Virus record (IMG/VR): IMGVR_UViG_2724679237_000005
Span: 44,631 to 108,630 of that record
DNA: 64,000 nucleotides
Strand: one strand, 5' to 3'
Origin: a virus
Lineage: Duplodnaviria; Heunggongvirae; Uroviricota; Caudoviricetes
The position numbers and the translations under genes were made by a program. The notes under the pieces are model-generated. The model had not been told where the DNA came from and ran no database searches. It saw only the letters and a program-made list of their open reading frames with translations. This document shows, one piece after another, positions 10,607-32,052 of the stretch. Position 1 is the stretch's first letter. Each line of letters starts with the position of its first letter.

Positions 10607-10654
10607 TTCTAAGACTCACTAAACAAATTGTTTTCTTATCTTATAAATTAATTC

Positions 10655-13018
10655 TCAAATATCGAAGCTCGTTATGTCGGCATTTATTGCCATTGCTTCG
10701 GCATAAGTGCGACGCTCACCATCAGCACAAAGTAGGCGTGCTGCTTTATGGATTTTTCTCGTAGAACCGTCATCCAGTGACACTGTCACCCAGCCTTCCT
10801 CCGCTCGCTTAATGAAGTCGCCGCCAATGGATTTCATTTTCTCCATATCTTTTTTCCCGATCGCTTTCCTGACCGAGTCTGCTTCCGCCATTGAGAACCC
10901 CGCCAAGATTCGCGTAGCAGCCATGATCTGTTCCTGATAAATCAGAACACCGTTTGTGTCGCGAGAGATGTCGTCCAGCATAGGGTGTAAGGAATGTGGA
11001 GCCATGAAGCCTTTGGCCACGGAGACATAGTCGTCCAACATGCCGGATTGAATCGGGCCTGGTCGGAAGAGTGCGGTCGTGGCGACAACGGTCTTGAAGC
11101 TCATTGGCTCGATGCCACCGCCCAGATCTTTAAGCAACTTACGCATGGGGCCGGACTCCAGCTGGAATACGCCCTGCGTGTACCCTGCAGCGAACCCATC
11201 CAGAACCTTGCGATCGTCCAGTGGGATAGCGTCGAGATTGATATCTTCACCTGTGTTCTCTTTTATGTAGCGTTTTGCACTATCGAGCAAATCGAGAGTT
11301 GCCAGGCCAAGCACGTCCAGCTTAATTAGGCCCATAGCCTCGCAGTAACGCTTGTCAAATGCGATACAACGCGCGTCACCACGTCGTTCAACCGGTGTAC
11401 GTTCTGTCAGAGGAACACCTGCTACGATCATCCCTGCCGCATGTCTACCAAAGCCACGCATAAGGCTTTGTAACTTGCAGGCTGCATTGAATGCATCAGG
11501 ATATTTTGTTGCGTATTTGTCGAGACTTGCCAGTTGTTCGCGCAGTTCTTCCAATGGAAGGCTATCATCCTCAGCGTTCTTCAGTTCTTTTGATACCGCC
11601 ATATCTGCGGACTCCACACCATAAATACGAGCGGTGTCACGTAGTGCAGAGGCTGCGCCCAGGTAGGTGAAGTTCGGAATGCCTGCAACGTAATCTTCGC
11701 CGTAGCGTTCATTCAGATACTCGATCACCTCATGGCGACGTGCCTGGCTGAAGTCCAAATCCGCATCTGGCAAGTCGAGACGCTCAGGGTTGATGAAACG
11801 CTCAAACAGAAGACCGTGACGGATTGGGTCGACGTTGGTTATGCCTATGCACCACGCCACCAGAGAACCGGCAGAGGAACCACGACCAGGCCCAACGGGA
11901 ATGCCAGTTTCACGACTATGATTCATCAGATCGCGCACCATCAGGAAGTAACCACAGAATCCCAGGCGAGTCAGCGTGTCCATTTCGTACTTTAGCCGCT
12001 CAACATAAACCCTGTTCTCAGAAGCAGGTGGTGTGTATCCAAACTCTTTTGTGGTAAGACGTTTACGCAGCCCTGCAACAGCCAGTTTCATCAGCGTTGC
12101 AGGTTCGTCGTCTGCCATCTTGGGCAGTGCTGGTGGCAATTCATGCCAGCGCCATGTGCAGGAATCGATAATGGTATCCTGCGTTGTTGAGGCCATTGCA
12201 GCTGTTACAGGCACATCCATGCGAACGGAGAAGGCTTTAAGCGCCTCAAGGAGATGGCGGCGACCATTGACGGCGTTATCTCGCTGGTGGGGGATACGCA
12301 GACGATGCGGCTGGTCGATTTTGATGTTGTTCGTAACCATGTGCGCAATGTCTTTAATGTCTGCATCGTCGATCGATTCGTAATAAGCGGGATAGAACGC
12401 CACTGGCTCTATTTTCAATGCGCTGGCGACTTTCATCGCCCGGACGTTAATCTGGTCGTAGAATGGGGTAGGGTGCGGATAAACCACACTATAGAAGTTG
12501 TCTTTTCCACCCGCTGTAATCAGTGTGCTTATGATTTTTGCAAAATCGTTGCGTTGGAACACGCTACCGATGTCGGAAGTAAGCAGGATGATGTTGCCTT
12601 TGGCATATGTAGAAACCAACTGTTCGAGCGAGAGACGCGGTACAAAGTAGAACTGTTCTCGTGTGTTGGCCGCCGTCATTAGTTCGCAGATGTCGCGATA
12701 TCCTTGCTCATTTTTAATTAGAGCGGTAAACGAGTAGTTACGTCCCCGCTCTAATGATTCCATACATCTCATAGATTCTTTAGCAAGTTTAGCCCGGTGC
12801 TCGTATGTGGGATCATCAACAATGTTTAGTTTCACACCACAAATAACCGCCATGTCGTCACCAGCGGCACGTTGTAGTGGAATAACGCTCGCAATATTCA
12901 TGCTATCTGCTGAAATTACAGCGGTGTAGCCAGCTTCTCTGGCAATCTTCACCGCGTTTTCTGCTTTTAGAGCCGACTCCCCAAGTGAGAAGTCAGTTCG
13001 AACCATCAGTGCCTTCAT
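10655..13018 (-). CDS. dnaE: DNA polymerase III alpha (DnaE), N-terminal fragment (PHP and polymerase core)
   Basis: Palm motif GYFLMVRDLMNHSRETGIPVGPGRGSSAGSLVAWCIGITNVDP and LFERFINPERLDLPDADLDF; ends just before the fingers FNKSHS motif, which is found in the downstream fragment. Confidence 0.85.
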   Translation of the reverse strand: MKALMVRTDFSLGESALKAENAVKIAREAGYTAVISADSMNIASVIPLQRAAGDDMAVICGVKLNIVDDPTYEHRAKLAKESMRCMESLERGRNYSFTALIKNEQGYRDICELMTAANTREQFYFVPRLSLEQLVSTYAKGNIILLTSDIGSVFQRNDFAKIISTLITAGGKDNFYSVVYPHPTPFYDQINVRAMKVASALKIEPVAFYPAYYESIDDADIKDIAHMVTNNIKIDQPHRLRIPHQRDNAVNGRRHLLEALKAFSVRMDVPVTAAMASTTQDTIIDSCTWRWHELPPALPKMADDEPATLMKLAVAGLRKRLTTKEFGYTPPASENRVYVERLKYEMDTLTRLGFCGYFLMVRDLMNHSRETGIPVGPGRGSSAGSLVAWCIGITNVDPIRHGLLFERFINPERLDLPDADLDFSQARRHEVIEYLNERYGEDYVAGIPNFTYLGAASALRDTARIYGVESADMAVSKELKNAEDDSLPLEELREQLASLDKYATKYPDAFNAACKLQSLMRGFGRHAAGMIVAGVPLTERTPVERRGDARCIAFDKRYCEAMGLIKLDVLGLATLDLLDSAKRYIKENTGEDINLDAIPLDDRKVLDGFAAGYTQGVFQLESGPMRKLLKDLGGGIEPMSFKTVVATTALFRPGPIQSGMLDDYVSVAKGFMAPHSLHPMLDDISRDTNGVLIYQEQIMAATRILAGFSMAEADSVRKAIGKKDMEKMKSIGGDFIKRAEEGWVTVSLDDGSTRKIHKAARLLCADGERRTYAEAMAINADITSFDI

Positions 13019-13202
13019 GTGTTTTTACCTTTCTGGTTTTTTTGATTTTGTCATTGGGGAAGCCTACGAACTTCCCATGCATCGAAATCGCAACTTCTTT
13101 TGCTGATTGGTGACAATCGGGCTTGTCTGGACACACCAGACAAGCCTTACCAGTTTCAGAAGCAGCGATAAGAGAGCCGAAACATCCTTTACGCACGATC
13201 AA
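12993..13202 (-). CDS. small Cys-rich hypothetical protein (69 aa)
   Basis: CLVCPDKPDC cluster; overlaps dnaE start by 25 nt so its start may be internal. Confidence 0.3.
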   Translation of the reverse strand: MIVRKGCFGSLIAASETGKACLVCPDKPDCHQSAKEVAISMHGKFVGFPNDKIKKTRKVKTHEGTDGSN

Positions 13203-14434: not shown

Positions 14435-14529
14435 GCGTTTTTCCTTTGTTTTCTAATGAGCGTTCAACTTCTTATATAAATATATCATTAACTATCGTAA
14501 GTGGTTACTTATCATTAAGGCTGTTTTGT

Positions 14530-16638
14530 TCACTTTAAAATGATACGAGATAGTTCAGTAACTACAGATGAACCAAGACTATCAACGCTCGTTACCAGGG
14601 CATGATTTGAGTAAAATCTCTCCGGTGCGTCAGTCATGATGCCAATTGCCATCAAATCAATGTCAGTCTGCGTTTCAATTTGTTTCGCAACCGAACGCAA
14701 ATGAGCGTCAAAACCTCTCCCAACAGCCCACGGCGCGCCATCACTCAGAACAAGCATGATCTTCCTGTCCTCCATGCGACCGGAAAATAACGATGCAAGG
14801 CTGGCTATGCTTTCACCATCCACGTTATTAAGAAGTGGGAATGTGTAGCCTACGCACCCCATACGTGAGCGAACTTCGCGAGAATTTACCTTTTCATTCC
14901 AATTTTTGATGATAGGTAGCATTAAAGATTCAAAGCGAGAGAACTCATACTTGACAGCCTTAAGTTCTCCTGCCGCCATATGACTACCAAATGTAGTGAA
15001 GCCGGTGATAATGTTGGGAACATTTATTCGATCAAGGGCATCGGCGATGGTATATGCACTTGCAAGAGCCAATTGTATCGTTATACCACTCATTGAACCT
15101 GATAAATCAATCACTTGTTGAACACAGGCGTTAACGGCTTTAGATTCTTCTTTTTTACGAAACACGCGATCATCATTCATTGCTAATCTGTAGATACTAG
15201 AACCATGAATGCGCCCCCGACGCTGGCCCGGTATAAACTGAACTCTGTTTCTGCTTGCTATTGCTCGCTCTAGGTCTTTTGCCAGCGTCGACGAAACACC
15301 TGACGAAAGATGCTTTTCAATATATTTGTCGAAGAGCTGGTTGCCTTCAGGAACGATGCGATAGCGGCTGATTGGATATCCTCCCAAATCAATATCGGAG
15401 AATGTTTTAATAAGCCGTTTGATATGGGCTTCTGCCTGATCAATCGAGCCGATGAAGTCGTATGAGCGATTGTATGGCCTGTATTCGCTTTTCGAGCTTT
15501 CTGTTAACTCGCTTTTAATCGTTTCGGATAGAGCATCTTCTGTCATGCCTCCGACTTCATCTTCTATGCTATCCAGCTCCTCTAAAGCCTCTTCCAGACT
15601 CATTTTTGACGGAGTTGGAATATCTGAAGAGCCGTCTTCTGTCGTTTTTCTTTTTTCGTGGTCAGCGGTTAATGATTCTGACGCCGCGTTATCAGAAGCA
15701 TCAGAATCTGATACCTCTTCATCATTTTCTGTATCATCGAATATTGTTTCTGATGATTCAGAATTATCTGAATCATCACTGTCGTTATTATCATGTTTGT
15801 GCTTACTGTGTGATTCTGGTTTGATAGATTTGTGATTATCTAACGCTGAGGGTGTCTCATAATCTTCGTTATCTTCATTGTTTTCTCCAGAGGCATCCGT
15901 CTGGTCAGCGTCTGAAGGATCGGAAGTTTTTCCCGGAGCTGACTCCTTACCTTTGCTTTCACTTTCAGTGTCTTTGAGGATCTTAGCTATGGTCGCAGCC
16001 ACCTTTACACAATCCTCGGTGCAAGACATGTTACGCACAGCCACATCGATACCATGTTCTTTTAATAATGAAATTGGTTTCTCAATGACAGGCCAGTATT
16101 CATCCATGAAATCTACGAACGGTGCTTGGCCATCCCAGGCTCTTACAACCGGACAGAGAAAGAAGTTTAGAAAAAGCGCGCGCTGATCTTTGCCACAATA
16201 AGCAATAGCCTCTGAAGCCTTTGGTTTAAAGACTTTTTCGATTATAAGGCGCTGAGTTGCCATCAGATTACGTCTTGTTCCGTTAAAGACCTGCCCCATT
16301 TTTCGCTCGATGAACACGTCTTCTAAGGCATTCCATAGCGACCAGGAAGGAACGCGTCCTTTTTCTCTCATTTTGTTGGACACACGAATATCGGTAAACA
16401 AAATGTGAGCAACCTCATGATCGAGAAATCCGCGCACAGCATTCATCAATGCCGGTGTTGCGTTATCCGGGATTGATGGGATGTTTACGAGAATTGGCTC
16501 TCCATCATCGTTATAGCGTACATAAGCGTCGTCCCCTCGTTCTGCAACAGGGATGTTTTTACCTGAAAGGAGAGCGACAACTCGTTTTACACTGTCACGG
16601 AAGTCCTGAACCTCTTTGATGGAACGTTTTTTAGACAT
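14530..16638 (-). CDS. von Willebrand factor A domain protein, CobT-like partner of the AAA+ ATPase
   Basis: MIDAS motif DLSGSMSG; long acidic Ser/Asp-rich low-complexity region. Confidence 0.65.
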   Translation of the reverse strand: MSKKRSIKEVQDFRDSVKRVVALLSGKNIPVAERGDDAYVRYNDDGEPILVNIPSIPDNATPALMNAVRGFLDHEVAHILFTDIRVSNKMREKGRVPSWSLWNALEDVFIERKMGQVFNGTRRNLMATQRLIIEKVFKPKASEAIAYCGKDQRALFLNFFLCPVVRAWDGQAPFVDFMDEYWPVIEKPISLLKEHGIDVAVRNMSCTEDCVKVAATIAKILKDTESESKGKESAPGKTSDPSDADQTDASGENNEDNEDYETPSALDNHKSIKPESHSKHKHDNNDSDDSDNSESSETIFDDTENDEEVSDSDASDNAASESLTADHEKRKTTEDGSSDIPTPSKMSLEEALEELDSIEDEVGGMTEDALSETIKSELTESSKSEYRPYNRSYDFIGSIDQAEAHIKRLIKTFSDIDLGGYPISRYRIVPEGNQLFDKYIEKHLSSGVSSTLAKDLERAIASRNRVQFIPGQRRGRIHGSSIYRLAMNDDRVFRKKEESKAVNACVQQVIDLSGSMSGITIQLALASAYTIADALDRINVPNIITGFTTFGSHMAAGELKAVKYEFSRFESLMLPIIKNWNEKVNSREVRSRMGCVGYTFPLLNNVDGESIASLASLFSGRMEDRKIMLVLSDGAPWAVGRGFDAHLRSVAKQIETQTDIDLMAIGIMTDAPERFYSNHALVTSVDSLGSSVVTELSRIILK

Positions 16639-16736
16639 GGCTAATCCTTTGTTATGAAAACAAATTATTTACTAGTGTGTTTAATGTAGCACTGCGCGAA
16701 CAGGGAACTAAGCCATTCGCGCAGGGAGAAGAGGGG

Positions 16737-16949
16737 TTAACAGATTCTGACGGCTAAAGACCCGGAGCCGGTATTGAGAAGCGTGAAGCGTTTGTTGTTA
16801 AGTTCGAATATAAAGCCAGTTGTGTCATTCACACCAACCTGAATCTGCTCATTCGGTAGATCGGTGAGGATGTCAGCTACACACTCATCAGCTAATTTCT
16901 GTACGTGTCCGATCTCAAGAGCGATTAGGCTGGAAATAGTGGTTTTCAT
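16737..16949 (-). CDS. hypothetical protein (70 aa)
   Basis: ORF only; divergent from the HTH regulator gene. Confidence 0.35.
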   Translation of the reverse strand: MKTTISSLIALEIGHVQKLADECVADILTDLPNEQIQVGVNDTTGFIFELNNKRFTLLNTGSGSLAVRIC

Positions 16950-17126
16950 TCAATCAATCCATTCTAACTTATACTATGGTAAGGAATACTACTAAAATTT
17001 GTATCAATACTGAATACATCTATATCAGATGCAAGTTAATTTTCTTACCTATTTTGGGCTGGTTTTTCTCCATGCATGGACCTTTGCTCGGTCTTACAAG
17101 TGCCTGCCGAAAAAAATGATAATAGC

Positions 17127-17154
17127 TTTACAACCCTAATCTTTGATGTAATAT
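17127..17154 (+). promoter_or_regulatory. sigma70-like promoter for the HTH regulator
   Basis: TTTACA (17127-17132), 16-nt spacer, TAATAT (17149-17154); followed by palindrome GGTAAGCACTTACC at 17157-17170 and an AGGT Shine-Dalgarno. Confidence 0.45.
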
Positions 17155-17200
17155 CGGTAAGCACTTACCAGAGAGAATTAAACGCGCAAAGGTTGTAATA

Positions 17201-17587
17201 ATGTCTGACAACAAGATTGAATTTATAGAAAGTCGCTATGCTGCTTTTATCGCAGGGCTGATTGAATCCTCACCTATGAGTCAGGCCCAAATAGCCAGAC
17301 TTATTGGTTATAAAAATGCCAACAACCTTTCTTTAATTAAAAGTGGCAAAATTCCTTTGCCTATCGATAAGGTTCGTCCGCTGGCGCTGGCGCTGGGTAT
17401 TGAGCCAAGTCGTCTTATGATGATGGTGCTGGAAGAACGCCAACCTGAACTCGCAGCATTTTTATACAAAGAAGGCACCGCTCCTCTTAACGAGGACGAA
17501 AAACAGGTTCTTGCTGCATATAACGAGCGATTCGGTAAAGAGAAAGGCGCATCACAAAAGGTTGTTGAGGCCATAAAGTCTCTATGA
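17201..17587 (+). CDS. XRE-family helix-turn-helix transcriptional regulator (repressor-like)
   Basis: HTH segment SQAQIARLIGYKNANNLSLIKSG; convergent with the recombinase gene. Confidence 0.6.
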   Translation: MSDNKIEFIESRYAAFIAGLIESSPMSQAQIARLIGYKNANNLSLIKSGKIPLPIDKVRPLALALGIEPSRLMMMVLEERQPELAAFLYKEGTAPLNEDEKQVLAAYNERFGKEKGASQKVVEAIKSL

Positions 17588-18685
17588 AAAATTTACACGA
17601 ATAAGCTCTGTTGATAGACGATCTCCCTTGAATTTGTGGTCAATTTCGTCTAAATCCGGTTGCTCTACGATTGATGCGATGTACGTCGAGAAACTTTCTA
17701 AGGCGTCTCGCATCTCGTCCATATAATCGTGCCGGTCGTAGACCCGATCTATCCCCTCAAGACTGTGGTTCATGATTTTGCGTGATACCTCCTGGCTTAT
17801 GCCTAATGCTGGGAAGTAACTACGCGCAGTACGGCGCAAATCTCGGGGTGTAAATGGCTCAAGCTCCATCAGTTCTGGTCGTTCCAGAATACGACGTAAT
17901 GCCTGGGCTATTGCCACTTTAGACATAGGAAGGTCTTTCCCGATTTTTTTATTCGAAGGCACGAGCCACTGGCTATCTTTACCGTATTCGAACAACTCTT
18001 CAATGCATGTGCGCATTAATGTGCTTAAAGGCAGCGAATGCTCACGTGCTGACTTGTTTCTTTTGCCTTGATTCCAAACCCCACGCTTAAGATTGAACTC
18101 ACTTTTTTTAGCCCGCAGTACTTCGTCAGGTCGTCTTGCTGATACAAGACACAGCCTGGCCGCCCATTTTGTACCAGCGCACACATTGAAGTAGTCCCAT
18201 ATATTCCAGAACACCCATACCTCTGCGTCGGTCAGCTTCCGCTCGCGAGGTGTGGGCTTTGCGCCACCGGCAACTTTGTTTAGTGACATATCGTTTAACG
18301 GTGACACGTCTATCATTCCCTGGAAGGCGCACCAGCTAAGGAACTGCTTCATCAGAGAGAAAACGCGGCGGCCCATAACAATTTTGCCATCCAGTATTAG
18401 TGGGTTGACCAGTTGGTTCACCATGAACCTATTAATGTCACTTACTTTTACATCGGCAATGTGCGGCAAAACATGTATCAAAATACAATGAACAGCGATC
18501 TCTGGCCGACGTCTTGTTATCAGCAGAGATAAGCGAGTGAATAACATGAATGCGTCCGAGAATCTCATGTCATTGCTGACCTGGGAGATCATAACGGCCT
18601 GCATTTGAGATGCTCTTTCGAGATACTCAATCGCCTCTTTTGAGGTGTTCTCCGCAGCGCGTGCTCTGTCAAAGCTATTTTTCAT
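17582..18685 (-). CDS. tyrosine site-specific recombinase (integrase/resolvase family)
   Basis: C-terminal catalytic region with RDLRRTARS, HSLEGIDRVYDRHDY (His-x-x-Arg and Tyr nucleophile pattern). Confidence 0.75.
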   Translation of the reverse strand: MKNSFDRARAAENTSKEAIEYLERASQMQAVMISQVSNDMRFSDAFMLFTRLSLLITRRRPEIAVHCILIHVLPHIADVKVSDINRFMVNQLVNPLILDGKIVMGRRVFSLMKQFLSWCAFQGMIDVSPLNDMSLNKVAGGAKPTPRERKLTDAEVWVFWNIWDYFNVCAGTKWAARLCLVSARRPDEVLRAKKSEFNLKRGVWNQGKRNKSAREHSLPLSTLMRTCIEELFEYGKDSQWLVPSNKKIGKDLPMSKVAIAQALRRILERPELMELEPFTPRDLRRTARSYFPALGISQEVSRKIMNHSLEGIDRVYDRHDYMDEMRDALESFSTYIASIVEQPDLDEIDHKFKGDRLSTELIRVNFS

Positions 18686-18783
18686 ATGACAATCACCGAG
18701 TTACGCCGATGTACTGTATAAGTAAACAGTATATTAGGCATAGATTCTTATAGGATCAAGAGTAAAAGTAACTCATTTTCAGT

Positions 18784-18816
18784 AATGATTCCATACATAG
18801 TAGGTATGGAATCATT
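18784..18816. repeat. perfect 13-7-13 palindrome AATGATTCCATAC-ATAGTAG-GTATGGAATCATT
   Basis: Read directly; about 100 bp upstream of the recombinase start; followed on plus strand by a T-rich run, so it could alternatively act as a terminator hairpin. Confidence 0.6.
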
Positions 18817-18895
18817 TAGACGTTGTTTTTTGAATTTTAAGGGAAACAGGAGTGAGTTTGGTGGGAATAAAAACGGCTCCTGTGAGCCGTTTAAA

Positions 18896-19141
18896 TCAGA
18901 GGGTGCTGACGTATGCAGCCAGTTCTGTGTATCCGCCAATCGGTTGGCCATCGATCAGTACCTGGGGGATAGTCTCTACCGGTTTACCAACAATTTCACT
19001 AAGTTTTTCCTTGTCGATACCGGCAGTGGTGATGTCGATGTACTCATAATCACCGTAGCCATGTCCCTTTAGTTGCTTCGCCAGCTCGACCGCACGTTTG
19101 CAGTATGAGCAGTTATCTCGTCCGTAGATAGTGATCGTCAT
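18896..19141 (-). CDS. glutaredoxin-like protein
   Basis: Active-site CSYC in MTITIYGRDNCSYCKRA; ORF-track start at 19219 is probably too far upstream, the ATG at complement 19139-19141 gives an ~81-aa protein. Confidence 0.7.
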   Translation of the reverse strand: MTITIYGRDNCSYCKRAVELAKQLKGHGYGDYEYIDITTAGIDKEKLSEIVGKPVETIPQVLIDGQPIGGYTELAAYVSTL

Positions 19142-19315
19142 TGTTACCTCATAGAATTGATATGCAACTTTACTTACAAAGAAGATAGGTATGTGCATAC
19201 TTATCATTGCAGTCTGCATTATAAAGCTATTAAAGCCTCGATCAATCTATTAATTAAGGCATTGTTTGGTTAACATTACCCTAATATTTTATAGTTAGTA
19301 GAGTGAAATACATAC

Positions 19316-20578
19316 ATGCCTTTTTTAATTTTCATTATTATACTACTGCTCACCGTGATTTTTTGGGATTGGGTTGTTTTAAATGGTCAAATTGTTGGAA
19401 CATTGGCTACAGCATTTGCTTTTATAGCAACAGCATGGAATGCCTACGAAGCGAGAAAAAGTGCAAAAGCAGCTTTTTCAGCCCTTCAATTAACAACAGA
19501 ATCATTGTTCGAAATGCGAAAGAGTGCATTTAAACAATGGTTTGATTCCTTATTAAATCAACATGATGAGCTATGTCTTCTTGCAAAACAAATTATCGAT
19601 AAACGCAAAGTTAATTTAAACAGCGATGAGTTACATAGACTATATTACCCATTGGTAAAACAGCATGAGGTAATACAGTATGTGAAGCATATTATTAATA
19701 TTTTTGAGTATGTGGATAGTTCATTTTATATTGATGGGGAATGTCTAAAGGAAAAAAGAGCGTATGTGTCACAATTAATTTTCAAAATCCCACCTCAGAT
19801 GAAGTTGATCATTGCTATCTTTGGATTAAAAATCGATTATTGTGAACATATTAATTCGGGAAAACTGTGTTGTTTATTGAATAAATATGATTTTTTCAAT
19901 GATGAAATATTTTTTGATGATGCTTATTCAGATATGCCTTATCTGGATGCATTCATAAACCTTAGATTCAACAAAATATTCAAATCTCGAATGATAAATT
20001 ATTTTGATAATATCATTAAAAGTTATTATGTTCCATCGGACGTTAAAAGGGACTGGATGTTTCGAAACCCAAAGCTCGTGCCGTCGGTTCTTATGAATTA
20101 TAAAACTCCTTGTTCTCCTATAATTAATGATTACTTTGAGAAGTTGCCTTTACATGTAAGAAACTACTTTGAGGAACTACTTAAAACCGCGAATGATAGA
20201 GTTACTCATTTTGACGTTTACATCCCACGCCTTATTGGTTGTTCAATCGTGCAACATTACGAAGATGTGCCTTCCGAAAAAAACAGGTTAAATGACAGGA
20301 ATGATGTAATAGCTATGGCTGAAGATTACATCGAGAAAAGAAAATATAATCAACTGGATTACATACTTGAAGATATATACTTCAAGAGTGACGAAGATAT
20401 AATCCCTGGCCACCATTTGATTGTGGCATTTGATGACTATGAATTTAAATTATCACTCATTAAGATAAATGAGAATAAAGATAGCGATAATCTTTTAAAT
20501 CGAATTTATACTGAATCCAGTAGCATGGTTAAAGAATATAAGCGCGAAATATTAAAACTGGGCGACTATGTAAAGTAA
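19316..20578 (+). CDS. AT-rich accessory gene: membrane-anchored 420-aa protein of unknown function
   Basis: Plus-strand among minus-strand genes; markedly AT-rich codon usage; two N-terminal hydrophobic helices (FLIFIIILLLTVIFWDWVVL, IVGTLATAFAFIATAW); own terminator; no recognisable catalytic motif. Confidence 0.6.
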   Translation: MPFLIFIIILLLTVIFWDWVVLNGQIVGTLATAFAFIATAWNAYEARKSAKAAFSALQLTTESLFEMRKSAFKQWFDSLLNQHDELCLLAKQIIDKRKVNLNSDELHRLYYPLVKQHEVIQYVKHIINIFEYVDSSFYIDGECLKEKRAYVSQLIFKIPPQMKLIIAIFGLKIDYCEHINSGKLCCLLNKYDFFNDEIFFDDAYSDMPYLDAFINLRFNKIFKSRMINYFDNIIKSYYVPSDVKRDWMFRNPKLVPSVLMNYKTPCSPIINDYFEKLPLHVRNYFEELLKTANDRVTHFDVYIPRLIGCSIVQHYEDVPSEKNRLNDRNDVIAMAEDYIEKRKYNQLDYILEDIYFKSDEDIIPGHHLIVAFDDYEFKLSLIKINENKDSDNLLNRIYTESSSMVKEYKREILKLGDYVK

Positions 20579-20595
20579 ATTGCACTGTTCAACAA

Positions 20596-20624
20596 AAAAG
20601 GGGCCGAAGCCCCTTTGAATTTTG
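20596..20624 (+). terminator. rho-independent terminator of the AT-rich gene
   Basis: AAAAGGGGC-CGAA-GCCCCTTT stem-loop followed by TTTGAATTTT. Confidence 0.6.
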
Positions 20625-20690
20625 CGCTGAAAAAAGTGTTGCTAGGATGTTAGCAAGCTATGGTTAAGAACGTCTGCCGTAATTATCTAT

Positions 20691-20768
20691 CACAGCGTTG
20701 AGCGGTCTGGTTTATGTTAGCGGAGTCTTAATCGAGTTGATTAAAAGGCCAAACCGCTCAACGCTGTG
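20691..20768. other. long hairpin (20-bp arms, one mismatch) adjacent to the 3' end of tRNA-Ser
   Basis: CACAGCGTTGAGCGGTCTGG at 20691-20710 pairs with CCAAACCGCTCAACGCTGTG at 20749-20768; inner hairpin TTAATC/GATTAA in the loop. Confidence 0.5.
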
Positions 20769-20770
20769 TC

Positions 20771-20857
20771 TGGCGGAGAGTAATGGAATCGAACCATCAT
20801 CGTTTGCACAATGGGACGGTTTTCAAGACCGCTTGAGCACCATGCTCCCTACTCTCC
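20771..20857 (-). tRNA. tRNA-Ser (anticodon TGA)
   Basis: Hand-folded: acceptor GGAGAGT/ACTCTCC, anticodon arm GCGGT-CTTGAAA-ACCGT, long variable arm, T-loop GGTTCGATTCC, 3' GCCA encoded. Confidence 0.75.
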
Positions 20858-21177
20858 AGCTATTGTGATGGTCGGTGCTGAACTCCGACACAGGGTTGTA
20901 GCAAGCCCCGCAAAGCGCGCACTACTGTAGTTGCGGCACATCAGCCTGTGCATTCATCACAATGGTAAGATCACTACCTTTCGACCAGTCATTGTGCACA
21001 TGAACGACGATTAACCGTAATGATATTATCGTTGTGTTGTGAAGCCAGATGCTTATCTTCTGGTTGCTTCAAAGAGCTGCACTTCCTCACAACGGTAAGA
21101 GCACTGGTCTGACTCTATCGATTTACGGCCTTGTGGGTCAGTATCGCCGATTCGCCCAATGCTCTTACCTGTTGTGT

Positions 21178-21253
21178 TGGTGCCGGTTAACGGACTTGAA
21201 CCGCTGGCCATTCGCTTACAAAACGACTGCTCTACCAACTGAGCTAAACCGGC
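21178..21253 (-). tRNA. tRNA-Thr (anticodon TGT)
   Basis: Hand-folded: acceptor GCCGGTT/AACCGGC, D-arm GCTC-AGTTGGTA-GAGC, anticodon loop TTTGTAA, T-arm AGCGG-TTCAAGT-CCGTT, CCA encoded; one mismatch at top of anticodon stem. Confidence 0.7.
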
Positions 21254-21257
21254 AATT

Positions 21258-21344
21258 TGGTGGGGAGTGATGGAGTCGAACCACCCGAGTCGCCATGACA
21301 GTAGATTTACAGTCTACACCGCTACCTCTACGGACTAACTCCCC
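21258..21344 (-). tRNA. tRNA-Tyr (anticodon GTA)
   Basis: Hand-folded: acceptor GGGGAGT/ACTCCCC, anticodon arm GTAGA-CTGTAAA-TCTAC, long variable arm, T-loop GGTTCGACTCC, CCA encoded. Confidence 0.8.
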
Positions 21345-21349
21345 TAAAT

Positions 21350-21424
21350 TGGCGATGGTGGGTGGATTCGAACCACCGACCAGTTGGTTAACAGCCAACT
21401 GCTCTACCGCTGAGCTACACCATC
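21350..21424 (-). tRNA. tRNA-Asn (anticodon GTT)
   Basis: Hand-folded: acceptor GATGGTG/CACCATC, D-arm GCTC-AGCGGTA-GAGC, anticodon arm GTTGG-CTGTTAA-CCAAC, T-arm GGTGG-TTCGAAT-CCACC, CCA encoded. Confidence 0.8.
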
Positions 21425-21609
21425 AATTCAGCACTGCCAGTATTTATTACTCAACAGTGCCAATCGCGACGGTTTAGTTTCTGCCAGGAAACGCACCGCT
21501 ACTTGCACTTTTCGTTAGTGCCAGACGCTTTCGACTTCGCTCAATAGTAGAAGGCAAAATCTTTAAGTAGATGATGTTTCTGAGGACAGCACCTACTTTG
21601 TAATTTATA

Positions 21610-21632
21610 CAATGTGATGTATGGAATCATTT
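21610..21632. repeat. copy B of 23-bp repeat CAATGNGATGTATGGAATCATTT
   Basis: Shares 14 bp (GTATGGAATCATTT) with the right arm of the 18784-18816 palindrome and 22 of 23 bp with copy C. Confidence 0.6.
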
Positions 21633-21639
21633 GTTGTGA

Positions 21640-22160
21640 AAACAGGCACCAATGGCAACAGTGGTTAAACCTACACAACAATCCCGTCTTCACAACGTTG
21701 AGGCCACTACTCCGATTGAATGTTTGCCCAACATGTTACATATCAACGCTCGCCGGTATCTCTGTGAATAGAACCTTAGAATTGATAAAAATGTAATGGC
21801 CTCAACGTTGTGTGCTGGCTAACCATACCAGCCGGGCTACGTCGCCGCTTTTTAACCCAGTATAAACGACATAATTGAACAAAATGACGTAACAGGATGG
21901 GCGGTCAGTGGCTAAGAATCCGGGAGTCATATGGAGTTGAAAATATACCAACCGCCCATTCTGTTACTTCATCGGAGGGAACATGAATGTTCCCTCCTGC
22001 GTTCTGCAATCACACTCGCTCAGTGTGTCCCATTTCGGTAACGAGGCTGGAAACTGACCTCGCTGGTGTTTGGCTTATTAGGCTACTGCCAGATAGACTT
22101 CTTCGTTTGCACTTGTATTTAAGTTCAAACAGTCGCGTCTCAACGAAAACAAAGTCATCT
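21640..22160. other. ORF-poor, highly structured ~0.5-kb region; candidate noncoding RNA or cis-acting element
   Basis: No ORF with a credible start; inverted repeats 21691-21705/21798-21812 and 21897-21905/21951-21959; perfect hairpin GGAGGGAACA-TGAA-TGTTCCCTCC at 21975-21998; ATAAGTA-type motif at 22172-22193. Confidence 0.4.
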
Positions 22161-22202
22161 TATACATAAAAGATAAGTAAGTAAACACTTATCGCTGTGT
22201 TT

Positions 22203-22493
22203 TTATTCGGTTGTGACTTTTTTGATCAAGGCCACTCTACGACTAGGTGTTCTTGTGATGGTGGCAGTGAATCGTTTCGCTTGGATAGTAATGGTTTCGT
22301 TCTCCTTAAGTTGCCCGTAGCGAGTTTCAACCAGGGTGCCAAGACGCCACAGACCATCATCGATACGTTTATGACTAGCAAATTTAATCAGCAACAGTTT
22401 TACGACTAACTGACCTACGTAAAAGGCGAATGCGACTCCGGCCGCTAAGAAATAGGTGGCCAACCACCATTCCCAAGAAGTTAACTTGCTCAT
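22203..22493 (-). CDS. small membrane protein (96 aa)
   Basis: N-terminal TM helix WWLATYFLAAGVAFAFYVGQLVV; start overlaps stop of upstream small ORF (ATGA). Confidence 0.45.
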   Translation of the reverse strand: MSKLTSWEWWLATYFLAAGVAFAFYVGQLVVKLLLIKFASHKRIDDGLWRLGTLVETRYGQLKENETITIQAKRFTATITRTPSRRVALIKKVTTE

Positions 22494-22642
22494 TTTTTCA
22501 CCTTTGTTTCATGAACTACCCGATACACGCGCTTTCCGATGCACAGTGTTTTGGTTTTAAGTTCCTGCTTAATCAAATCACGACAGATGCCGAAGCCGAT
22601 AAGGAAGCCACCCATAAAAGCCAATGAGATGTATGGAATCAT
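22490..22642 (-). CDS. small membrane protein (50 aa) starting inside repeat copy C
   Basis: ATG at complement 22640-22642 within the repeat (MIPYISLAFMGGFLIGFGI...); stop overlaps next start; below ORF-track cutoff. Confidence 0.3.
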   Translation of the reverse strand: MIPYISLAFMGGFLIGFGICRDLIKQELKTKTLCIGKRVYRVVHETKVKK

Positions 22643-22647
22643 TTCAA
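22625..22647. repeat. copy C of 23-bp repeat CAATGNGATGTATGGAATCATTT
   Basis: Read directly at 22622-22644 region; provides the start codon of the 50-aa ORF on the minus strand. Confidence 0.6.
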
Positions 22648-22854
22648 CGCTCCTGACTCTACTAGTTGCTGTAGCAATACTTTCCCTTTATCAGTTAACT
22701 GGTAGTTGGCCGAACACTTCGTTTCAGAAACGTTTGCAACCAACCCTAACCGCTCTAACTTAGCCCGCGTTTTAGGCTTCCAGTACTCAGGGAACTCTGA
22801 CCACTTACTGATTTCATGAAGTGTTTCCTTCTCCCGTTTACTTAATACGATCAT
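22639..22854 (-). CDS. hypothetical small protein (71 aa)
   Basis: ORF; stop overlaps start of the next gene (ATGA). Confidence 0.45.
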   Translation of the reverse strand: MIVLSKREKETLHEISKWSEFPEYWKPKTRAKLERLGLVANVSETKCSANYQLTDKGKVLLQQLVESGALK

Positions 22855-23017
22855 CCTTAATCTCCTTCACGGTGTTGGTTATTTCTACAATGCGATAAAT
22901 ACGACCGCGTCTTTCTATAACACCGCTTTTAATGTAGTCATTGATGCAACTGGACATCACCACAATACCTATGAAAAAACCAACTGCTAAAAATGCAATC
23001 ATCCAACCGAGCATCAT
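22838..23017 (-). CDS. small membrane protein (59 aa), below ORF-track cutoff
   Basis: GGAGATAAAG Shine-Dalgarno then ATGATG at complement 23012-23017; hydrophobic MMLGWMIAFLAVGFFIGIVVM. Confidence 0.35.
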   Translation of the reverse strand: MMLGWMIAFLAVGFFIGIVVMSSCINDYIKSGVIERRGRIYRIVEITNTVKEIKDDRIK

Positions 23018-24336
23018 TCTTTATCTCCGATTCGATCTTCTGTATCGCGTAAGCAACGCGGCCATTTCAGTCGTGGGTGGCGTAAGCTGCCATCCGGCGT
23101 TTTCTCGTGACAATGAACCTCGACAATACGACCACGGTACTTCTCTTTGTTGTTCCAGATCTCGTCCAGATATTTATGCTTAATGCCGCTCGCACGAACA
23201 ATCACACCGTTTTCAAGGCGAATAACAATTTTTCCAAGCGTGTTGGCAAAACCAGAGTCCGGGTCGCCCGGCTCAAAGTCGATAATTTCACCATCTTCTG
23301 AATCTTCGTCTTTTAACTTCCACCAGCTGCGGGTACGTTTAAACTCGTAAACAGAGTTCGGATCTTTGCCCATCTCCCCTTCTTCGTTATCGTCCAGGCG
23401 TTTCATGAAGCGTTCGATGAAGTCTTCGTGGCTATGGATGATATAGAACGGATGCAGGTGAATGTCTTGTGTGTAGCCTTCACTGCGATCGTTTTTGAAC
23501 AACGCCACCAGCATAGCCAGGCGCTCTTTCAGCTTCATACCTGTCTTTGCATACTCTTTGGATTTAGCCTGTGCTCGCCATTCCGGTAGGAAGAAGTCGA
23601 AAACATGATAAATAGCGCCAATTGCCTGCACGTTCTTTTTGCGCAATGCAGATACGGACTGGTTAAATGAACCGGCTGTTCCTTCACCATCGAAGAAGAT
23701 GTGTTTGTGGCCTGAAAGTTTGCCTAATTCGAGCATGGCTGGCTTTAGGTGATCGAGAGACGTGATTGGATTACCAGTACGAGAAAGGAAGTTAACCTCT
23801 TCCTCGTCAACAATAACCTCACAAATTACTCGCAAACCATCGAGCTTAAGGCTGCCAATCATCGGCCATTTGGCTTTAGGATTTGGCTTGAAGGGGTATT
23901 TGTCGCCTTTTTCTTTATACGGTGACGCCAGCTGCACCTCGAATTTCGGAATGGGATTTTCAAAAACCTTGTTGCATAGGCTAATCCCAACGCCAGCTTT
24001 CGGATCTTTTAAGAGGAAACGACGGAAGACGTCCTGCCCATCGGCGCACATTGACGCAACGATAGACTCAACAGCAGCTATTGCTGCGTTCCCCGTCAGC
24101 TCGCGAGAGGCCAGCTTATTCAGTATATCAATGGCTTTTTCGTCACTAGGGACGGACTCACTAAGCGGCTCTGCCACTTTGTATTTCTTTACCCCAAAAC
24201 GGATGAAAGGGTTGAGCATCAATGAAACCATGCTTTGCTCGAAGTCATCCATGTTGGCTAATGCCTCTTTTTTTGCATTGGTTCCCATAGCTTTCATTTC
24301 GTCCAGCTTATGCTTAAGTGCGATCAACTTTTTCAT
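23014..24336 (-). CDS. ATP-dependent DNA ligase (phage type)
   Basis: Adenylation motif I KLDGLR in GSLKLDGLRVICEV (KxDGxR); size typical of T4-like ligases. Confidence 0.7.
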   Translation of the reverse strand: MKKLIALKHKLDEMKAMGTNAKKEALANMDDFEQSMVSLMLNPFIRFGVKKYKVAEPLSESVPSDEKAIDILNKLASRELTGNAAIAAVESIVASMCADGQDVFRRFLLKDPKAGVGISLCNKVFENPIPKFEVQLASPYKEKGDKYPFKPNPKAKWPMIGSLKLDGLRVICEVIVDEEEVNFLSRTGNPITSLDHLKPAMLELGKLSGHKHIFFDGEGTAGSFNQSVSALRKKNVQAIGAIYHVFDFFLPEWRAQAKSKEYAKTGMKLKERLAMLVALFKNDRSEGYTQDIHLHPFYIIHSHEDFIERFMKRLDDNEEGEMGKDPNSVYEFKRTRSWWKLKDEDSEDGEIIDFEPGDPDSGFANTLGKIVIRLENGVIVRASGIKHKYLDEIWNNKEKYRGRIVEVHCHEKTPDGSLRHPRLKWPRCLRDTEDRIGDKE

Positions 24337-24815
24337 TGTTGTTTTGCCTCCATATGTTGATCGATTTGCTCATGTGTTTCTTTTGTTGTTTCTTCAAGCA
24401 ACGCCGCATACACGTCAGTGATCGCTGTTTGTGATGTGGTGCTCTTCTTAACCATGCTATTAATCGTTACACTGTCACGTTTTCGTTTTATAGTTCTGGC
24501 TTGTTTATTCCGTTCTTCAACCTCCTTAATGAGTGCGGTCATATCTTCAAAATACAGAGATTCTCCTTTACGAATCTCTTCAACCATCATTTTTAACGCC
24601 TTGCATTTGCCTGCTTTAATAGCGGTTGCGCACGACTGGAAAGAAGTTCGAGGAAGACGGTTTTCTTTGAAGGCAAGAATGGTGTGCTGGCAAACGGAAT
24701 AGCTGCAATATGCCGACTCACCGTTTATCTTTACTTCCTCACAACGAAGTGAATAACCGTTATTTCCTGAAATAGAAGGGATTTTTGACAAATCAGCTTT
24801 CACAATTACCGCCAA
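24333..24815 (-). CDS. hypothetical Cys-rich protein (160 aa)
   Basis: ORF with CEEVKINGESAYCSYSVCQH and SCATAIKAGKC cysteines; no recognised family. Confidence 0.45.
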   Translation of the reverse strand: MAVIVKADLSKIPSISGNNGYSLRCEEVKINGESAYCSYSVCQHTILAFKENRLPRTSFQSCATAIKAGKCKALKMMVEEIRKGESLYFEDMTALIKEVEERNKQARTIKRKRDSVTINSMVKKSTTSQTAITDVYAALLEETTKETHEQIDQHMEAKQQ

Positions 24816-24870
24816 AAATAATCTTGTGCTTACCTATCATTATTTGCGTAAAAAACGACACACTGAGAGC

Positions 24871-25653: not shown

Positions 25654-25778
25654 ACCAACTCCTAGCTAACGGATGAAAGTATTCTTACAAAAACTTAAGT
25701 ATGTATCTACTTATCATTTTAGATGCAATAGTTCTTTATACTAAGATGCCGGGCATATCCTCAGCCCAGCATTCACCT

Positions 25779-32014: not shown

Positions 32015-32052
32015 ATGCATTGGCGCAATGTACGCGCCAATGCATGATTTTT
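32015..32052 (+). terminator. rho-independent terminator after GIY-YIG gene
   Basis: ATGCATTGGCGC-AATGTAC-GCGCCAATGCAT perfect 12-bp stem followed by GATTTTT. Confidence 0.55.

What the first reader, a model, noticed from the sequence alone, without database searches (positions are those of the whole stretch)
18784..22647. 13-7-13 palindrome beside the tyrosine recombinase, with two further copies of its arm
AATGATTCCATAC-ATAGTAG-GTATGGAATCATT at 18784-18816 is a perfect palindrome with the geometry of a tyrosine recombinase core site (two 13-bp arms around a 7-bp spacer) and sits ~100 bp upstream of the recombinase gene. A 23-bp sequence containing one arm recurs at 21610-21632 and 22622-22644 (22 of 23 identical). 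On the minus strand each copy begins ATGATTCCATACAT, giving small ORFs that all start MIPYI, so the copies may also be remnants of a duplicated gene start. The three copies lie at the edges of the accessory region (glutaredoxin, AT-rich gene, tRNAs, structured region). Alternative reading: the palindrome is simply a terminator, since it is followed by a T-rich run on the plus strand.
Basis: partly seen in the sequence, partly recalled or inferred. Interest (0 to 1): 0.5.

Follow-up and report, generated by a model that had tools for sequence, protein, structure and literature searches.

The report
Phage-plasmid recombinase's palindromic target site
The 33-bp palindrome is most likely the DNA site where this phage-plasmid's own recombinase cuts and rejoins DNA, much as loxP serves Cre in phage P1. 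It is conserved across hundreds of plasmids, including Yersinia pestis pMT1, and no searchable paper contains its sequence.

Summary
AATGATTCCATAC-N7-GTATGGAATCATT (18784-18816) is the longest perfect short-spaced inverted repeat in the window.

The window is an SSU5/pHCM2/pMT1-type phage-plasmid. All 84 relatives fetched through the recombinase protein have the palindrome 95-99 nt upstream of int. The arms are invariant while the 7-bp spacer takes at least nine forms. Recombinases only 43-52% identical carry a palindrome of the same geometry but with a changed arm (GTGACTCCAGAC), altered symmetrically, even where int is the only shared gene.

The protein folds like the core-binding and catalytic domains of lambda Int and lacks the arm-binding domain. 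In 248 complete E. coli genomes the element is never chromosomal. A conserved LexA box abuts the predicted int promoter. Backbone homology ends at the palindrome, next to a hypervariable cargo region that holds caf1 in pMT1.

Best reading: a simple core recombination site, probably used for multimer resolution. This rests on comparison, not on a binding or recombination test. The terminator and duplicated-gene-start readings are rejected. The three single arms are under DNA-level selection, but their function is unknown, and no rearrangement at them was found.

The parts
18784..18816 (.). Candidate core recombination site. Left arm 18784-18796, 7-bp spacer (overlap region) 18797-18803, right arm 18804-18816.
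   Evidence: Read directly. Longest perfect short-spaced inverted repeat in the window. Present 95-99 nt upstream of int in all 84 loci fetched through the Int protein. Mean column identity is 1.00 and 0.98 for the arms, 0.70 for the spacer and 0.46-0.71 for the flanks. Class-2 homologues have the same geometry with symmetrically changed arms.
17582..18685 (-). int: a 367-aa tyrosine recombinase with core-binding and catalytic domains and no arm-binding domain.
   Evidence: Pfam PF00589, E = 4.7e-10. It matches only positions 137-393 of the 413-position P4-type integrase model NF007246. AF2 model has pLDDT 82. Best Foldseek hits are lambda Int(75-356) on its core site and Tn1549 Int. It is the only site-specific recombinase annotated in the near-identical plasmid NZ_CP117002.1.
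18712..18731 (.). LexA (SOS) box TACTGTATAAGTAAACAGTA, abutting the predicted int -10 element.
   Evidence: It is the only match to ACTGT-N8-ACAGT (up to 1 mismatch allowed) in the window, and it matches exactly. CTGT-N8-ACAG is kept, with a variable N8, in 171 of 181 loci whose Int is at least 82% identical, and in 0 of 12 class-2 loci. That LexA acts here is inferred from the consensus.
18731..18759 (-). Predicted int promoter on the minus strand: -35 TTGATC (18759-18754), 17 nt, -10 TAATAT (18736-18731).
   Evidence: Read from the sequence. The block is conserved in the 82-100% clades. It scores 8/12 and falls below the scanner's threshold, so this is inference only.
18817..18840 (.). Semi-conserved right flank: about 9 variable bases, then a T run and GAAWTCTG-like bases. 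Unrelated cargo begins after it.
   Evidence: Positions +10 to +24 have column identity 0.71, against 0.46 further out. The motif recurs next to unrelated cargo and near some class-2 sites. Function unknown.
18841..21155 (.). Hypervariable cargo region. Here it holds grxA (18896-19141, -), an AT-rich 420-aa ORF (19316-20578, +) and tRNA-Ser.
   Evidence: Homology with relatives stops at 18815-18834 and resumes at 21156-24308. There are at least 27 unrelated right-flank clusters, seven of them next to a 98-100% identical Int. No arm-like remnants lie inside the cargo.
12753..12768 (+). Single arm (a), AATGATTCCATACATC, inside dnaE and antisense to it. On the dnaE strand it encodes C-M-E-S-L.
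   Evidence: The codons TGT ATG GAA TCA TT are identical in the E. coli, Klebsiella, Kluyvera and Yersinia elements, while the flanking codons and residues vary. Class-2 DnaE has a different loop here.
21616..21631 (-). Single arm (b), between the tRNA cluster and a structured non-coding stretch.
   Evidence: It is kept at the same position in other clades, with unrelated sequence beyond the 16-mer.
22628..22643 (-). Single arm (c), overlapping the stop of the 71-aa gene and the start of the 50-aa gene (22490-22642, -).
   Evidence: The gene is real (phrog_6302, E = 1.4e-36). The N-terminus MIPYI is nearly invariant, while residues 6-25 vary among homologues down to 54% identity.
17201..17587 (+). 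128-aa HTH gene convergent with int. It is a neighbour, not a required part of the system.
   Evidence: Weak Pfam HTH_19 hit; phrog_8 transcriptional regulator. It is absent next to int and the palindrome in the Erwinia, Pantoea, Rahnella and jgi loci.

Best explanation
The palindrome is the core recombination site of the adjacent tyrosine recombinase. Two Int monomers bind the two 12-13-bp arms. Strand cleavage and exchange take place across the asymmetric 7-bp spacer, which sets the site's polarity and must match between partner sites.

The replicon is an extrachromosomal phage-plasmid and Int is its only site-specific recombinase. The most likely job is therefore to turn plasmid multimers back into monomers, and perhaps also to circularise or resolve replication products. 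This is the role Cre/loxP plays in P1.

Int is probably kept low by LexA and rises in the SOS response. Recombination at the site, or simply the need to keep the site intact, makes it a sharp mosaic boundary next to a cargo region.

Shown: the anatomy, co-occurrence, conservation pattern, symmetric co-variation, plasmid-only state and protein family. Inferred: binding, cleavage positions, the resolution function and LexA control.
For: 1. Co-occurrence. All 84 loci fetched through the Int protein (at least 82% identity) have the palindrome 95-99 nt from the int ATG. All nine homologues of 43-62% identity looked up (seven class 2, two class 1) have an arm-7-arm palindrome 20-109 nt upstream. Seven of eight class-2 palindromes found by pattern in viral contigs lie next to an Int homologue.
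2. Conservation typical of a protein-read site. The arms are 100% and 98% identical across Int of 59-100% identity, while the spacer takes at least nine sequences at a constant length of 7.
3. Co-variation. Class-2 sites read (T)GTGACTCCAGAC-N7-GTCTGGAGTCAC(A). Four arm positions changed on both sides, and 95.7% of cells are symmetric.
4. Int is the only gene shared by all contexts. The Erwinia, Pantoea and Rahnella loci are not phage-plasmids and lack the HTH neighbour.
5. Protein. It hits PF00589. Its fold is closest to lambda Int(75-356) bound to its C-O-C' core site, which has a 7-bp overlap by established knowledge. There is no arm-binding domain, whereas relatives below 35% identity have PF13356.
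6. Extrachromosomal state. 250 places in 248 of 5,426 complete E. coli genomes are all on plasmids. Int is the only site-specific recombinase annotated in NZ_CP117002.1.
7. Boundary. Backbone homology ends at 18815-18834. Between clades, nucleotide identity jumps from 75-77% left of the site to 85-93% right of it.
Against: There is no biochemical or genetic test. Symmetric co-variation would equally preserve a hairpin or the operator of any dimeric protein.

The canonical first His of the HxxR box is Arg (R281) throughout the family, so activity is unproven.

No natural product of site-specific recombination was identified, such as a resolved cointegrate or a spacer-matched exchange. The only record fetched whole that has two copies is an unclosed linear assembly with redundant ends.

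A LexA-repressed promoter is not what one would expect for constitutive dimer resolution. pMT1 also carries a serine recombinase gene. The cargo next to the site is often brought by transposons, so the boundary does not require Int action.
Confidence: 0.65

Rival explanations
1. The palindrome and the single arms are binding sites only. Int, or another protein, acts there as a regulator or architectural factor, for example in autoregulation of int, and no strand exchange occurs.
For: The site lies just upstream of the predicted int promoter. Single arms that cannot recombine are conserved elsewhere. No recombination products were found at them. The family has Arg in place of the first His of the HxxR box.
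Against: The distance from palindrome to int ATG ranges from 20 to 109 nt across the family, so there is no fixed promoter geometry. The 13-7-13 layout, about two helical turns centre to centre, with a spacer that is free in sequence but fixed in length, is that of a recombination core site. The other catalytic-motif residues are invariant. A plasmid-borne recombinase with no other candidate site would be left without a substrate.
Confidence: 0.14
2. The site is an attP-like site used to integrate the phage-plasmid into a chromosome or into other replicons.
For: Int descends from P4-type integrases. From my own knowledge, pMT1 has been reported to integrate into the Y. pestis chromosome.
Against: None of 250 places in complete E. 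coli genomes is chromosomal. Int has no arm-binding domain and there are no arm-type sites. The site is fully symmetric, as in resolution systems. In the one large fusion plasmid examined at this point (NZ_CP064259.1, 394 kb), ordinary phage-plasmid genes lie on both sides of the palindrome.
Confidence: 0.07
3. It is an integron-like capture platform. An SOS-induced Int inserts circular cargo at the palindrome, which creates the hypervariable region.
For: The layout resembles intI-attI: a LexA box at the int promoter, the site next to it, then variable cargo. Homology breaks at the site. Cargo identity is decoupled from backbone identity.
Against: There is only one full site per genome. No arm remnants or attC-like site pairs separate the cargo genes. 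The right-hand boundary of the variable region is diffuse. Some cargo is plainly transposon-borne. Int is not of the IntI type.
Confidence: 0.08
4. It is an intrinsic terminator or RNA hairpin that insulates int from neighbouring transcription.
For: As RNA it forms a 13-bp hairpin of -16 kcal/mol on either strand. On the plus strand a T run follows it.
Against: The T run starts 10 nt after the stem, and the minus strand, which carries all neighbouring genes, has none. The terminator scan does not call it. Several relatives lack the T run. grx has its own terminator-like hairpin at 18865-18890. The stem shows no compensatory drift in about 190 sequences although the flanks diverge by 30-50%. 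The same 13-mer is conserved as single copies that cannot fold.
Confidence: 0.03
5. The repeats are leftovers of a duplicated gene start (MIPYI...).
For: One copy does begin a conserved 50-aa gene.
Against: The dnaE copy is antisense and would encode MIPYIS followed by a stop. The copy at 21630 gives a 29-codon ORF in non-coding DNA. Similarity between copies ends after 15-16 nt in other clades. The single arms are invariant across clades whose surrounding sequence is unrelated.
Confidence: 0.03

Closest known systems
Cre/loxP of phage-plasmid P1 (also Dre/rox of D6)
   Same: One tyrosine recombinase acts on one site made of two perfect 13-bp inverted arms round a short asymmetric spacer. The site lies close to the recombinase gene on an extrachromosomal phage-plasmid. 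The expected role is multimer resolution or circularisation.
   Different: The spacer is 7 bp, not 8 (or 4 in rox). There is no sequence similarity to Cre (no PDB sequence hit; Foldseek E of at least 0.04 for Cre against 1e-6 for lambda Int). This system also has a LexA box at the promoter and extra single arms. It is untested experimentally.
Lambda/P4-type integrases and their C-O-C' core sites
   Same: The core-binding and catalytic domains have the same fold. The overlap region is 7 bp. Relatives below 35% identity are P4-type integrases.
   Different: The N-terminal arm-binding domain (PF13356) is missing and there are no arm-type sites. The arms are long and perfectly symmetric. The element is never found integrated.
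Single-recombinase Xer systems (XerH/difH, XerA/dif) and plasmid resolution sites such as cer and psi
   Same: A near-palindromic site bound by one recombinase species serves to resolve replicon dimers. XerH and XerA are among the fold hits.
   Different: The recombinase is encoded by the element itself. No FtsK or accessory-protein dependence is known. The arms are longer, 12-13 bp against 11.
Rci/sfx of the R64 shufflon; XerD-only sites (XDS) of Bacillus subtilis
   Same: These are precedents, recalled from my own knowledge, for sites with only one conserved arm next to a 7-bp spacer (sfx), and for lone recombinase half-sites with a non-recombination role (XDS). Both resemble the three single arms here.
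   Different: No inversion or deletion products were found at the single arms. Their 'spacers' differ from each other in most clades and from the palindrome's. They lie inside genes and kilobases apart.
Integron intI-attI platform
   Same: A LexA box sits at the int promoter, the recombination site lies beside int, and variable cargo starts at the site.
   Different: Int is not of the IntI type. There are no attC-bounded cassettes. Cargo includes transposons and tRNA genes.

Membership tests
Tyrosine recombinase superfamily (the protein) | Catalytic-domain sequence signature (PF00589) | tested here: met
   E = 4.7e-10, 39.9 bits against a cut-off of 27.1.
Tyrosine recombinase superfamily (the protein) | Two-domain fold: core-binding plus catalytic | tested here: met
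   AF2 model pLDDT 82. Foldseek probability 1.00 to lambda Int, Tn1549 Int, XerH, IntI and Cre.
Tyrosine recombinase superfamily (the protein) | Catalytic R-K-H-R-H/W-Y residues | tested here: inconclusive
   R184/R185, K211, R284, Y316 and Y321 are invariant, and H307 is present in at least 90% of 25 homologues. The first His of the HxxR box is an invariant Arg (R281). Only R185 was mapped onto a solved structure, XerH.
Simple inverted-repeat core site (loxP/FRT/dif type) | Two inverted recombinase-binding arms of 11-14 bp | tested here: met
   13-bp perfect arms here; 11-14 bp (up to 17 with one mismatch) in homologues.
Simple inverted-repeat core site (loxP/FRT/dif type) | Asymmetric spacer of 6-8 bp: fixed length, free sequence | tested here: met
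   The spacer is always 7 bp, with at least nine sequences in class 1 and at least ten in class 2.
Simple inverted-repeat core site (loxP/FRT/dif type) | The site's specificity co-varies with its recombinase | tested here: met
   There are two arm classes, which follow Int identity: at least 59% against 43-52%. The changes are symmetric at four positions.
Simple inverted-repeat core site (loxP/FRT/dif type) | Recombinase binding, cleavage at the arm/spacer borders, and recombination between two sites | not testable with these tools
   Needs gel-shift or footprint assays and in vivo recombination assays.
Cre family | Sequence or closest-fold relationship to Cre | tested here: not met
   No PDB sequence hit. 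Cre chains rank 37th and below, with E of at least 0.04.
P4/lambda-type phage integrase system | N-terminal arm-binding domain and arm-type sites | tested here: not met
   No PF13356. Only positions 137-393 of NF007246 match, at 33.7 bits against a cut-off of 434.
P4/lambda-type phage integrase system | The element is found integrated, flanked by hybrid att sites | tested here: not met
   0 of 250 places are on chromosomes in 5,426 complete E. coli genomes.
Intrinsic terminator | G+C-rich stem followed at once by a T run on the transcribed strand | tested here: not met
   The scan does not call it. The stem has 4 G-C pairs in 13. The T run lies 10 nt downstream on the plus strand only.
Integron | IntI-type integrase and attC-bounded cassettes | tested here: not met
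   Int is P4-like. There are no arm remnants or repeated sites in the cargo.
Shufflon-type asymmetric sites (Rci/sfx), tested for the single arms | DNA inversion between oppositely oriented single-arm sites | tested here: not met
   No inversion junction between sites a and c in 372 plasmids.
LexA (SOS) box | CTGT-N8-ACAG palindrome at a promoter | tested here: met
   Exact match at 18713-18730. Kept in 171 of 181 loci with a variable N8. LexA binding itself was not tested.

The most novel reading that the evidence does not exclude
Besides recombining at the palindrome, the SOS-inducible Int, or an RNA duplex formed by the same 16-mer, uses three single arms as a second, non-recombination network. 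These arms are overprinted on coding DNA: a DnaE loop, the start codon of a 50-aa membrane protein, and the leader of the tRNA cluster. The network would couple the DNA-damage response to the expression or DNA architecture of the phage-plasmid's replication module. The nearest precedent is XerD at its XDS sites, but here the sites lie inside genes of a mobile element.
Probability: 0.2. Interest if true: 0.7.

Novelty: new member of a known kind. Interest (0 to 1): 0.5.

Why it matters
- **Prevalence.** SSU5/pHCM2/pMT1-type phage-plasmids are common. The int-palindrome region is in 248 of 5,426 complete E. coli genomes and in 795 PLSDB plasmids of Klebsiella, Escherichia, Enterobacter, Yersinia and Salmonella. 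Their only site-specific recombinase has no described target in any paper I could search.
- **What a defined site allows.** A 33-bp site makes the maintenance and recombination biology of these elements directly testable.
- **Cargo hot spot.** The site marks the exact edge of a region that carries the F1 capsule operon (caf1) in Y. pestis pMT1 and tet(A)/blaTEM-1 in an E. coli plasmid.
- **Possible tool.** If active, the system would offer two natural specificity classes and about twenty natural spacers as a compact, Cre-like genome-engineering tool from a different recombinase lineage.
- **Open question.** The conserved single arms inside genes remain unexplained.

Tried and rejected
- **Terminator.** Not called by the scan, and the T run is misplaced.
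- **Duplicated gene start.** Only one copy starts a gene.
- **The HTH neighbour as the binder.** That gene is absent in four class-2 loci that keep int and the palindrome.
- **Partition site or iterons.** The motif does not look like the P1/pMT1 parS boxes I recall from memory. It is dispersed rather than clustered.
- **Replication-terminus analogy.** GC skew is uniformly negative and uninformative.
- **Single arms as degenerate full sites.** At most 4/13 matches to a second arm at 7-bp spacing (6/13 at 8 bp), judged by eye.
- **Single arms as recombination partners.** No inversion or deletion junctions: 0 of 372, 0 of 194 and 0 of 198 plasmids.
- **Cassette structure in the cargo.** No arm remnants.
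- **A fifth 'half-site' inside int (82-87% clades).** It is explained by the codons of the invariant V-W-N-Q motif and is absent here.
- **A plasmid with two copies (NZ_CP033700.1).** It is an unclosed linear assembly with redundant ends.
- **Large fusion plasmid.** In NZ_CP064259.1 (394 kb) ordinary phage-plasmid genes lie on both sides of the palindrome. In NZ_AP027746.1 (183 kb) the cargo slot holds transposon-borne resistance genes.
- **Flipped spacers with identical flanks (L004 against L049).** Hairpin template switching could produce these, so I treat them as neutral.
- **Rfam.** Only the tRNAs were found.
- **Literature.** No paper contains the class-1 13-mer arm or both class-2 arms; papers matching the 11-mers were unrelated by title. 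The SSU5 papers mention the recombinase but no site. The older pFra/pHCM2 paper (Prentice et al. 2001) was not held.

Full report
**Observation.** The sequence at 18784-18816 is exactly AATGATTCCATAC-ATAGTAG-GTATGGAATCATT. It lies 98 nt from the start codon of a minus-strand gene (17582-18685) whose product is a tyrosine recombinase (PF00589, E = 4.7e-10). It is the longest perfect inverted repeat with a spacer of 12 nt or less in the 64-kb window. Twenty first-order Markov simulations gave maxima of 9-12 bp.

The 12-mer ATGATTCCATAC occurs five times exactly, against 0.36 expected; 0 of 100 shuffles reached five. A complete 107.6-kb relative (CP053388.1) has the same five copies within 10.5 kb and nothing else within two mismatches.

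**What the replicon is.** The window is an SSU5/pHCM2/pMT1-type phage-plasmid. Its closest records are Escherichia phages CMS-2020a and Cyrano, at 96-98% identity. The int-palindrome region is found in 248 of 5,426 complete E. coli genomes. All 250 places are on plasmids and none on a chromosome. It is also in 795 PLSDB plasmids: Klebsiella 314, Escherichia 230, Enterobacter 92, Yersinia 63, Salmonella 49. In the near-identical annotated plasmid NZ_CP117002.1, this tyrosine recombinase is the only site-specific recombinase annotated.

**The palindrome travels with int.**
- A pattern scan of viral contigs returned 100 stretches. Every one with enough sequence encodes an Int homologue of 59-100% identity beside the palindrome. 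That scan fixes the arms by design, so I also fetched loci through the protein.
- All 84 loci fetched that way (Int at least 82% identical) have the palindrome 95-99 nt upstream of the ATG.
- Over 84 distinct sequences anchored on the site, mean column identity is 1.00 and 0.98 for the arms, 0.70 for the spacer and 0.46-0.71 for the flanks.
- Oriented with int on the left, the spacer takes at least nine sequences: ATAGTAG, CTAAAGA, CTAAGGA, TTAATAG, CTTACAA, TTTATAG, CTACCAA, TTACATA and TATATAA. It is always 7 bp long.

**Co-variation in distant homologues.** I looked up nine homologues of 43-62% identity.
- The seven at 43-52% are from Xenorhabdus, Providencia, Erwinia, Photorhabdus, Rahnella, Pantoea and one metagenome. 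Each has an arm-7-arm palindrome 20-108 nt upstream of int, but with a different arm: (T)GTGACTCCAGAC-N7-GTCTGGAGTCAC(A).
- The two at about 60%, one Nissabacter-like and one from Serratia, keep the class-1 arm.
- Eight more class-2 sites came from viral contigs, seven of them next to an Int homologue.
- On an alignment of 16 sites, four arm positions show changes on both sides and 95.7% of cells stay symmetric.
- Such symmetry would also preserve a hairpin or any dimer's operator. What points to Int is that it is the only gene shared by all contexts. The Erwinia, Pantoea and Rahnella loci lie among ordinary plasmid or chromosomal genes and lack the convergent HTH gene found in the phage-plasmids.

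**The protein.**
- Int matches only positions 137-393 of the 413-position P4-type integrase model.
- It has no PF13356 arm-binding domain, whereas relatives below 35% identity do.
- The AF2 model has pLDDT 82.
- Its fold is closest to lambda Int(75-356) bound to its core site and to Tn1549 Int. Cre ranks far lower.
- By established knowledge, lambda-type core sites have a 7-bp overlap region, which matches the spacer here.
- Most residues at the catalytic motifs are invariant among 25 homologues, but the first His of the HxxR box is an invariant Arg, R281. Activity is therefore plausible but unproven.

**Regulation.** TACTGTATAAGTAAACAGTA (18712-18731) is a good LexA box. It abuts a predicted minus-strand promoter, TTGATC-17-TAATAT.
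- CTGT-N8-ACAG is retained, with a varying N8, in 171 of 181 loci whose Int is at least 82% identical. It is absent from all 12 class-2 loci.
- SOS control of int is thus inferred for this clade.
- The promoter scores 8/12 and is not called by the scanner.

**Boundary of a cargo region.**
- Homology with six relatives ends at 18815-18834 and resumes at 21156-24308.
- Among 182 loci there are at least 27 unrelated right flanks, seven of them next to a 98-100% identical Int.
- Between the E. coli clade and the 85% clade, identity is 75-77% left of the site and 85-93% right of it.
- The first 24 bp to the right keep a loose T-run/GAAWTCTG motif.
- The cargo has no arm remnants, and its right edge is diffuse.
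- The slot holds caf1R-M-A-caf1 in Y. pestis pMT1 and Tn3/tet(A)/blaTEM-1 in an E. coli plasmid.

The site is therefore a sharp mosaic boundary, but cargo turnover does not need Int.

**Rejected readings.**
- Terminator. The stem has 4 G-C pairs in 13. The T run begins 10 nt after the stem on the plus strand only, while all neighbouring genes are on the minus strand. The scan does not call it, and several relatives lack the T run.
- Duplicated gene start. Only 22642 starts a gene (phrog_6302).
- Chromosomal attP. No integrated copies were found.
- Integron-like cassettes. Not seen.

**The single arms.** Three orthologous single arms, all reading (A)ATGATTCCATACATC, are kept in every class-1 clade.
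- Arm (a), 12753-12768, lies antisense inside dnaE. The codons TGT ATG GAA TCA TT (C-M-E-S-L) are identical in the E. coli, Klebsiella, Kluyvera and Yersinia elements, while neighbouring residues vary. Class-2 DnaE has a different loop at this point.
- Arm (b), 21616-21631, follows the tRNA cluster. Its surroundings are unrelated between clades.
- Arm (c), 22628-22643, spans a stop/start overlap. The 50-aa protein keeps MIPYI while residues 6-25 vary.

These arms are under DNA-level, or possibly RNA-level, selection.
- They have no second arm.
- The three bases that follow them (ATC) differ from those at the edges of the palindrome spacers, which are mostly YTA.
- They have no counterpart near class-2 sites.
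- No inversion or deletion junction at them exists in PLSDB: 0 of 372, 0 of 194 and 0 of 198 plasmids.
- The left arm is on the plus strand and the right arms on the minus strand. With three independent sites this has no statistical weight.

Their function is unknown. Int monomer binding is the most economical guess. A 16-nt complementarity between dnaE mRNA and the transcripts carrying (b) and (c) is not excluded.

**Verdict.** The palindrome is most likely (0.65) the core site of the phage-plasmid's own simple tyrosine recombinase, used mainly for multimer resolution. It is functionally like Cre/loxP but comes from the lambda/P4 lineage, and it may be SOS-tuned. It is a new member of a known kind and, as far as the searchable literature shows, undescribed. 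No biochemical evidence exists, and older subscription papers on pMT1 and pHCM2 could not be read.

Noticed in passing
window 8706-13018: dnaE is split. 10655-13018(-) encodes the PHP, NTPase and finger domains. 9872-10606(-) is a free-standing HNH_3/NUMOD3 homing endonuclease. 8706-9875(-) encodes the HHH_6 C-terminal part. Relatives have one 3.5-kb dnaE, and homology to them breaks at 10776.
   Followed up: partly
window 14487-14516, 19179-19208, 22167-22196, 24812-24841, 25689-25718: A five-member family of a 30-nt, partly palindromic motif (AAGATAGGTATGTGCATACTTATCATT). At least three copies lie just upstream of a minus-strand gene start. It is a candidate shared promoter or operator (family D1).
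   Followed up: no
window 32015-32045: A second 12-7-12 perfect palindrome, G+C-rich (ATGCATTGGCGC-aatgtac-GCGCCAATGCAT), followed by a T run. It may be a terminator or a partition-related site.
   Followed up: no
window 20691-20768, 21691-21812, 21884-21972: Long imperfect hairpins. Two of them share the motif CACA(G/A)CGTTGAG. One lies directly 3' of tRNA-Ser on the minus strand, the other next to single arm (b). Rfam finds nothing there.
   Followed up: no
L218 (NZ_CP033700.1, Y. pestis pMT1) 15393-22384; L221 (NZ_AP027746.1) 12586-24003: The cargo slot next to the palindrome holds the F1 capsule operon caf1R-caf1M-caf1A-caf1 in pMT1, and tet(A), Tn3 and blaTEM-1 in an E. coli IncFIB/IncY plasmid.
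   Followed up: partly
L004 9285-9317 against L049; L051/L175 and L110: The 7-bp spacer is flipped. L004 has CTACTAT where L049, with identical flanks on both sides, has ATAGTAG. L051 and L110 have CTATTAA where other loci of the 85% clade have TTAATAG. This could come from hairpin template switching or from recombination.
   Followed up: partly
L214 5271-5299: An orphan class-2 palindrome (spacer CTCGTGA) with no Int homologue within 5 kb.
   Followed up: partly
window 21258-21344: The tRNA cluster here is Ser, Thr, Tyr, Asn. Cyrano and NZ_CP117002.1 lack tRNA-Tyr, so the tRNA set is itself variable cargo.
   Followed up: no
L005 8483-8495 and the same position in the 82-87% clades: A near-arm, TTGATTCCATACAT, lies inside int itself, at the codons of the invariant V-W-N-Q motif. 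It is absent in this window (GGG GTT TGG AAT CAA) and is probably a by-product of coding.
   Followed up: yes
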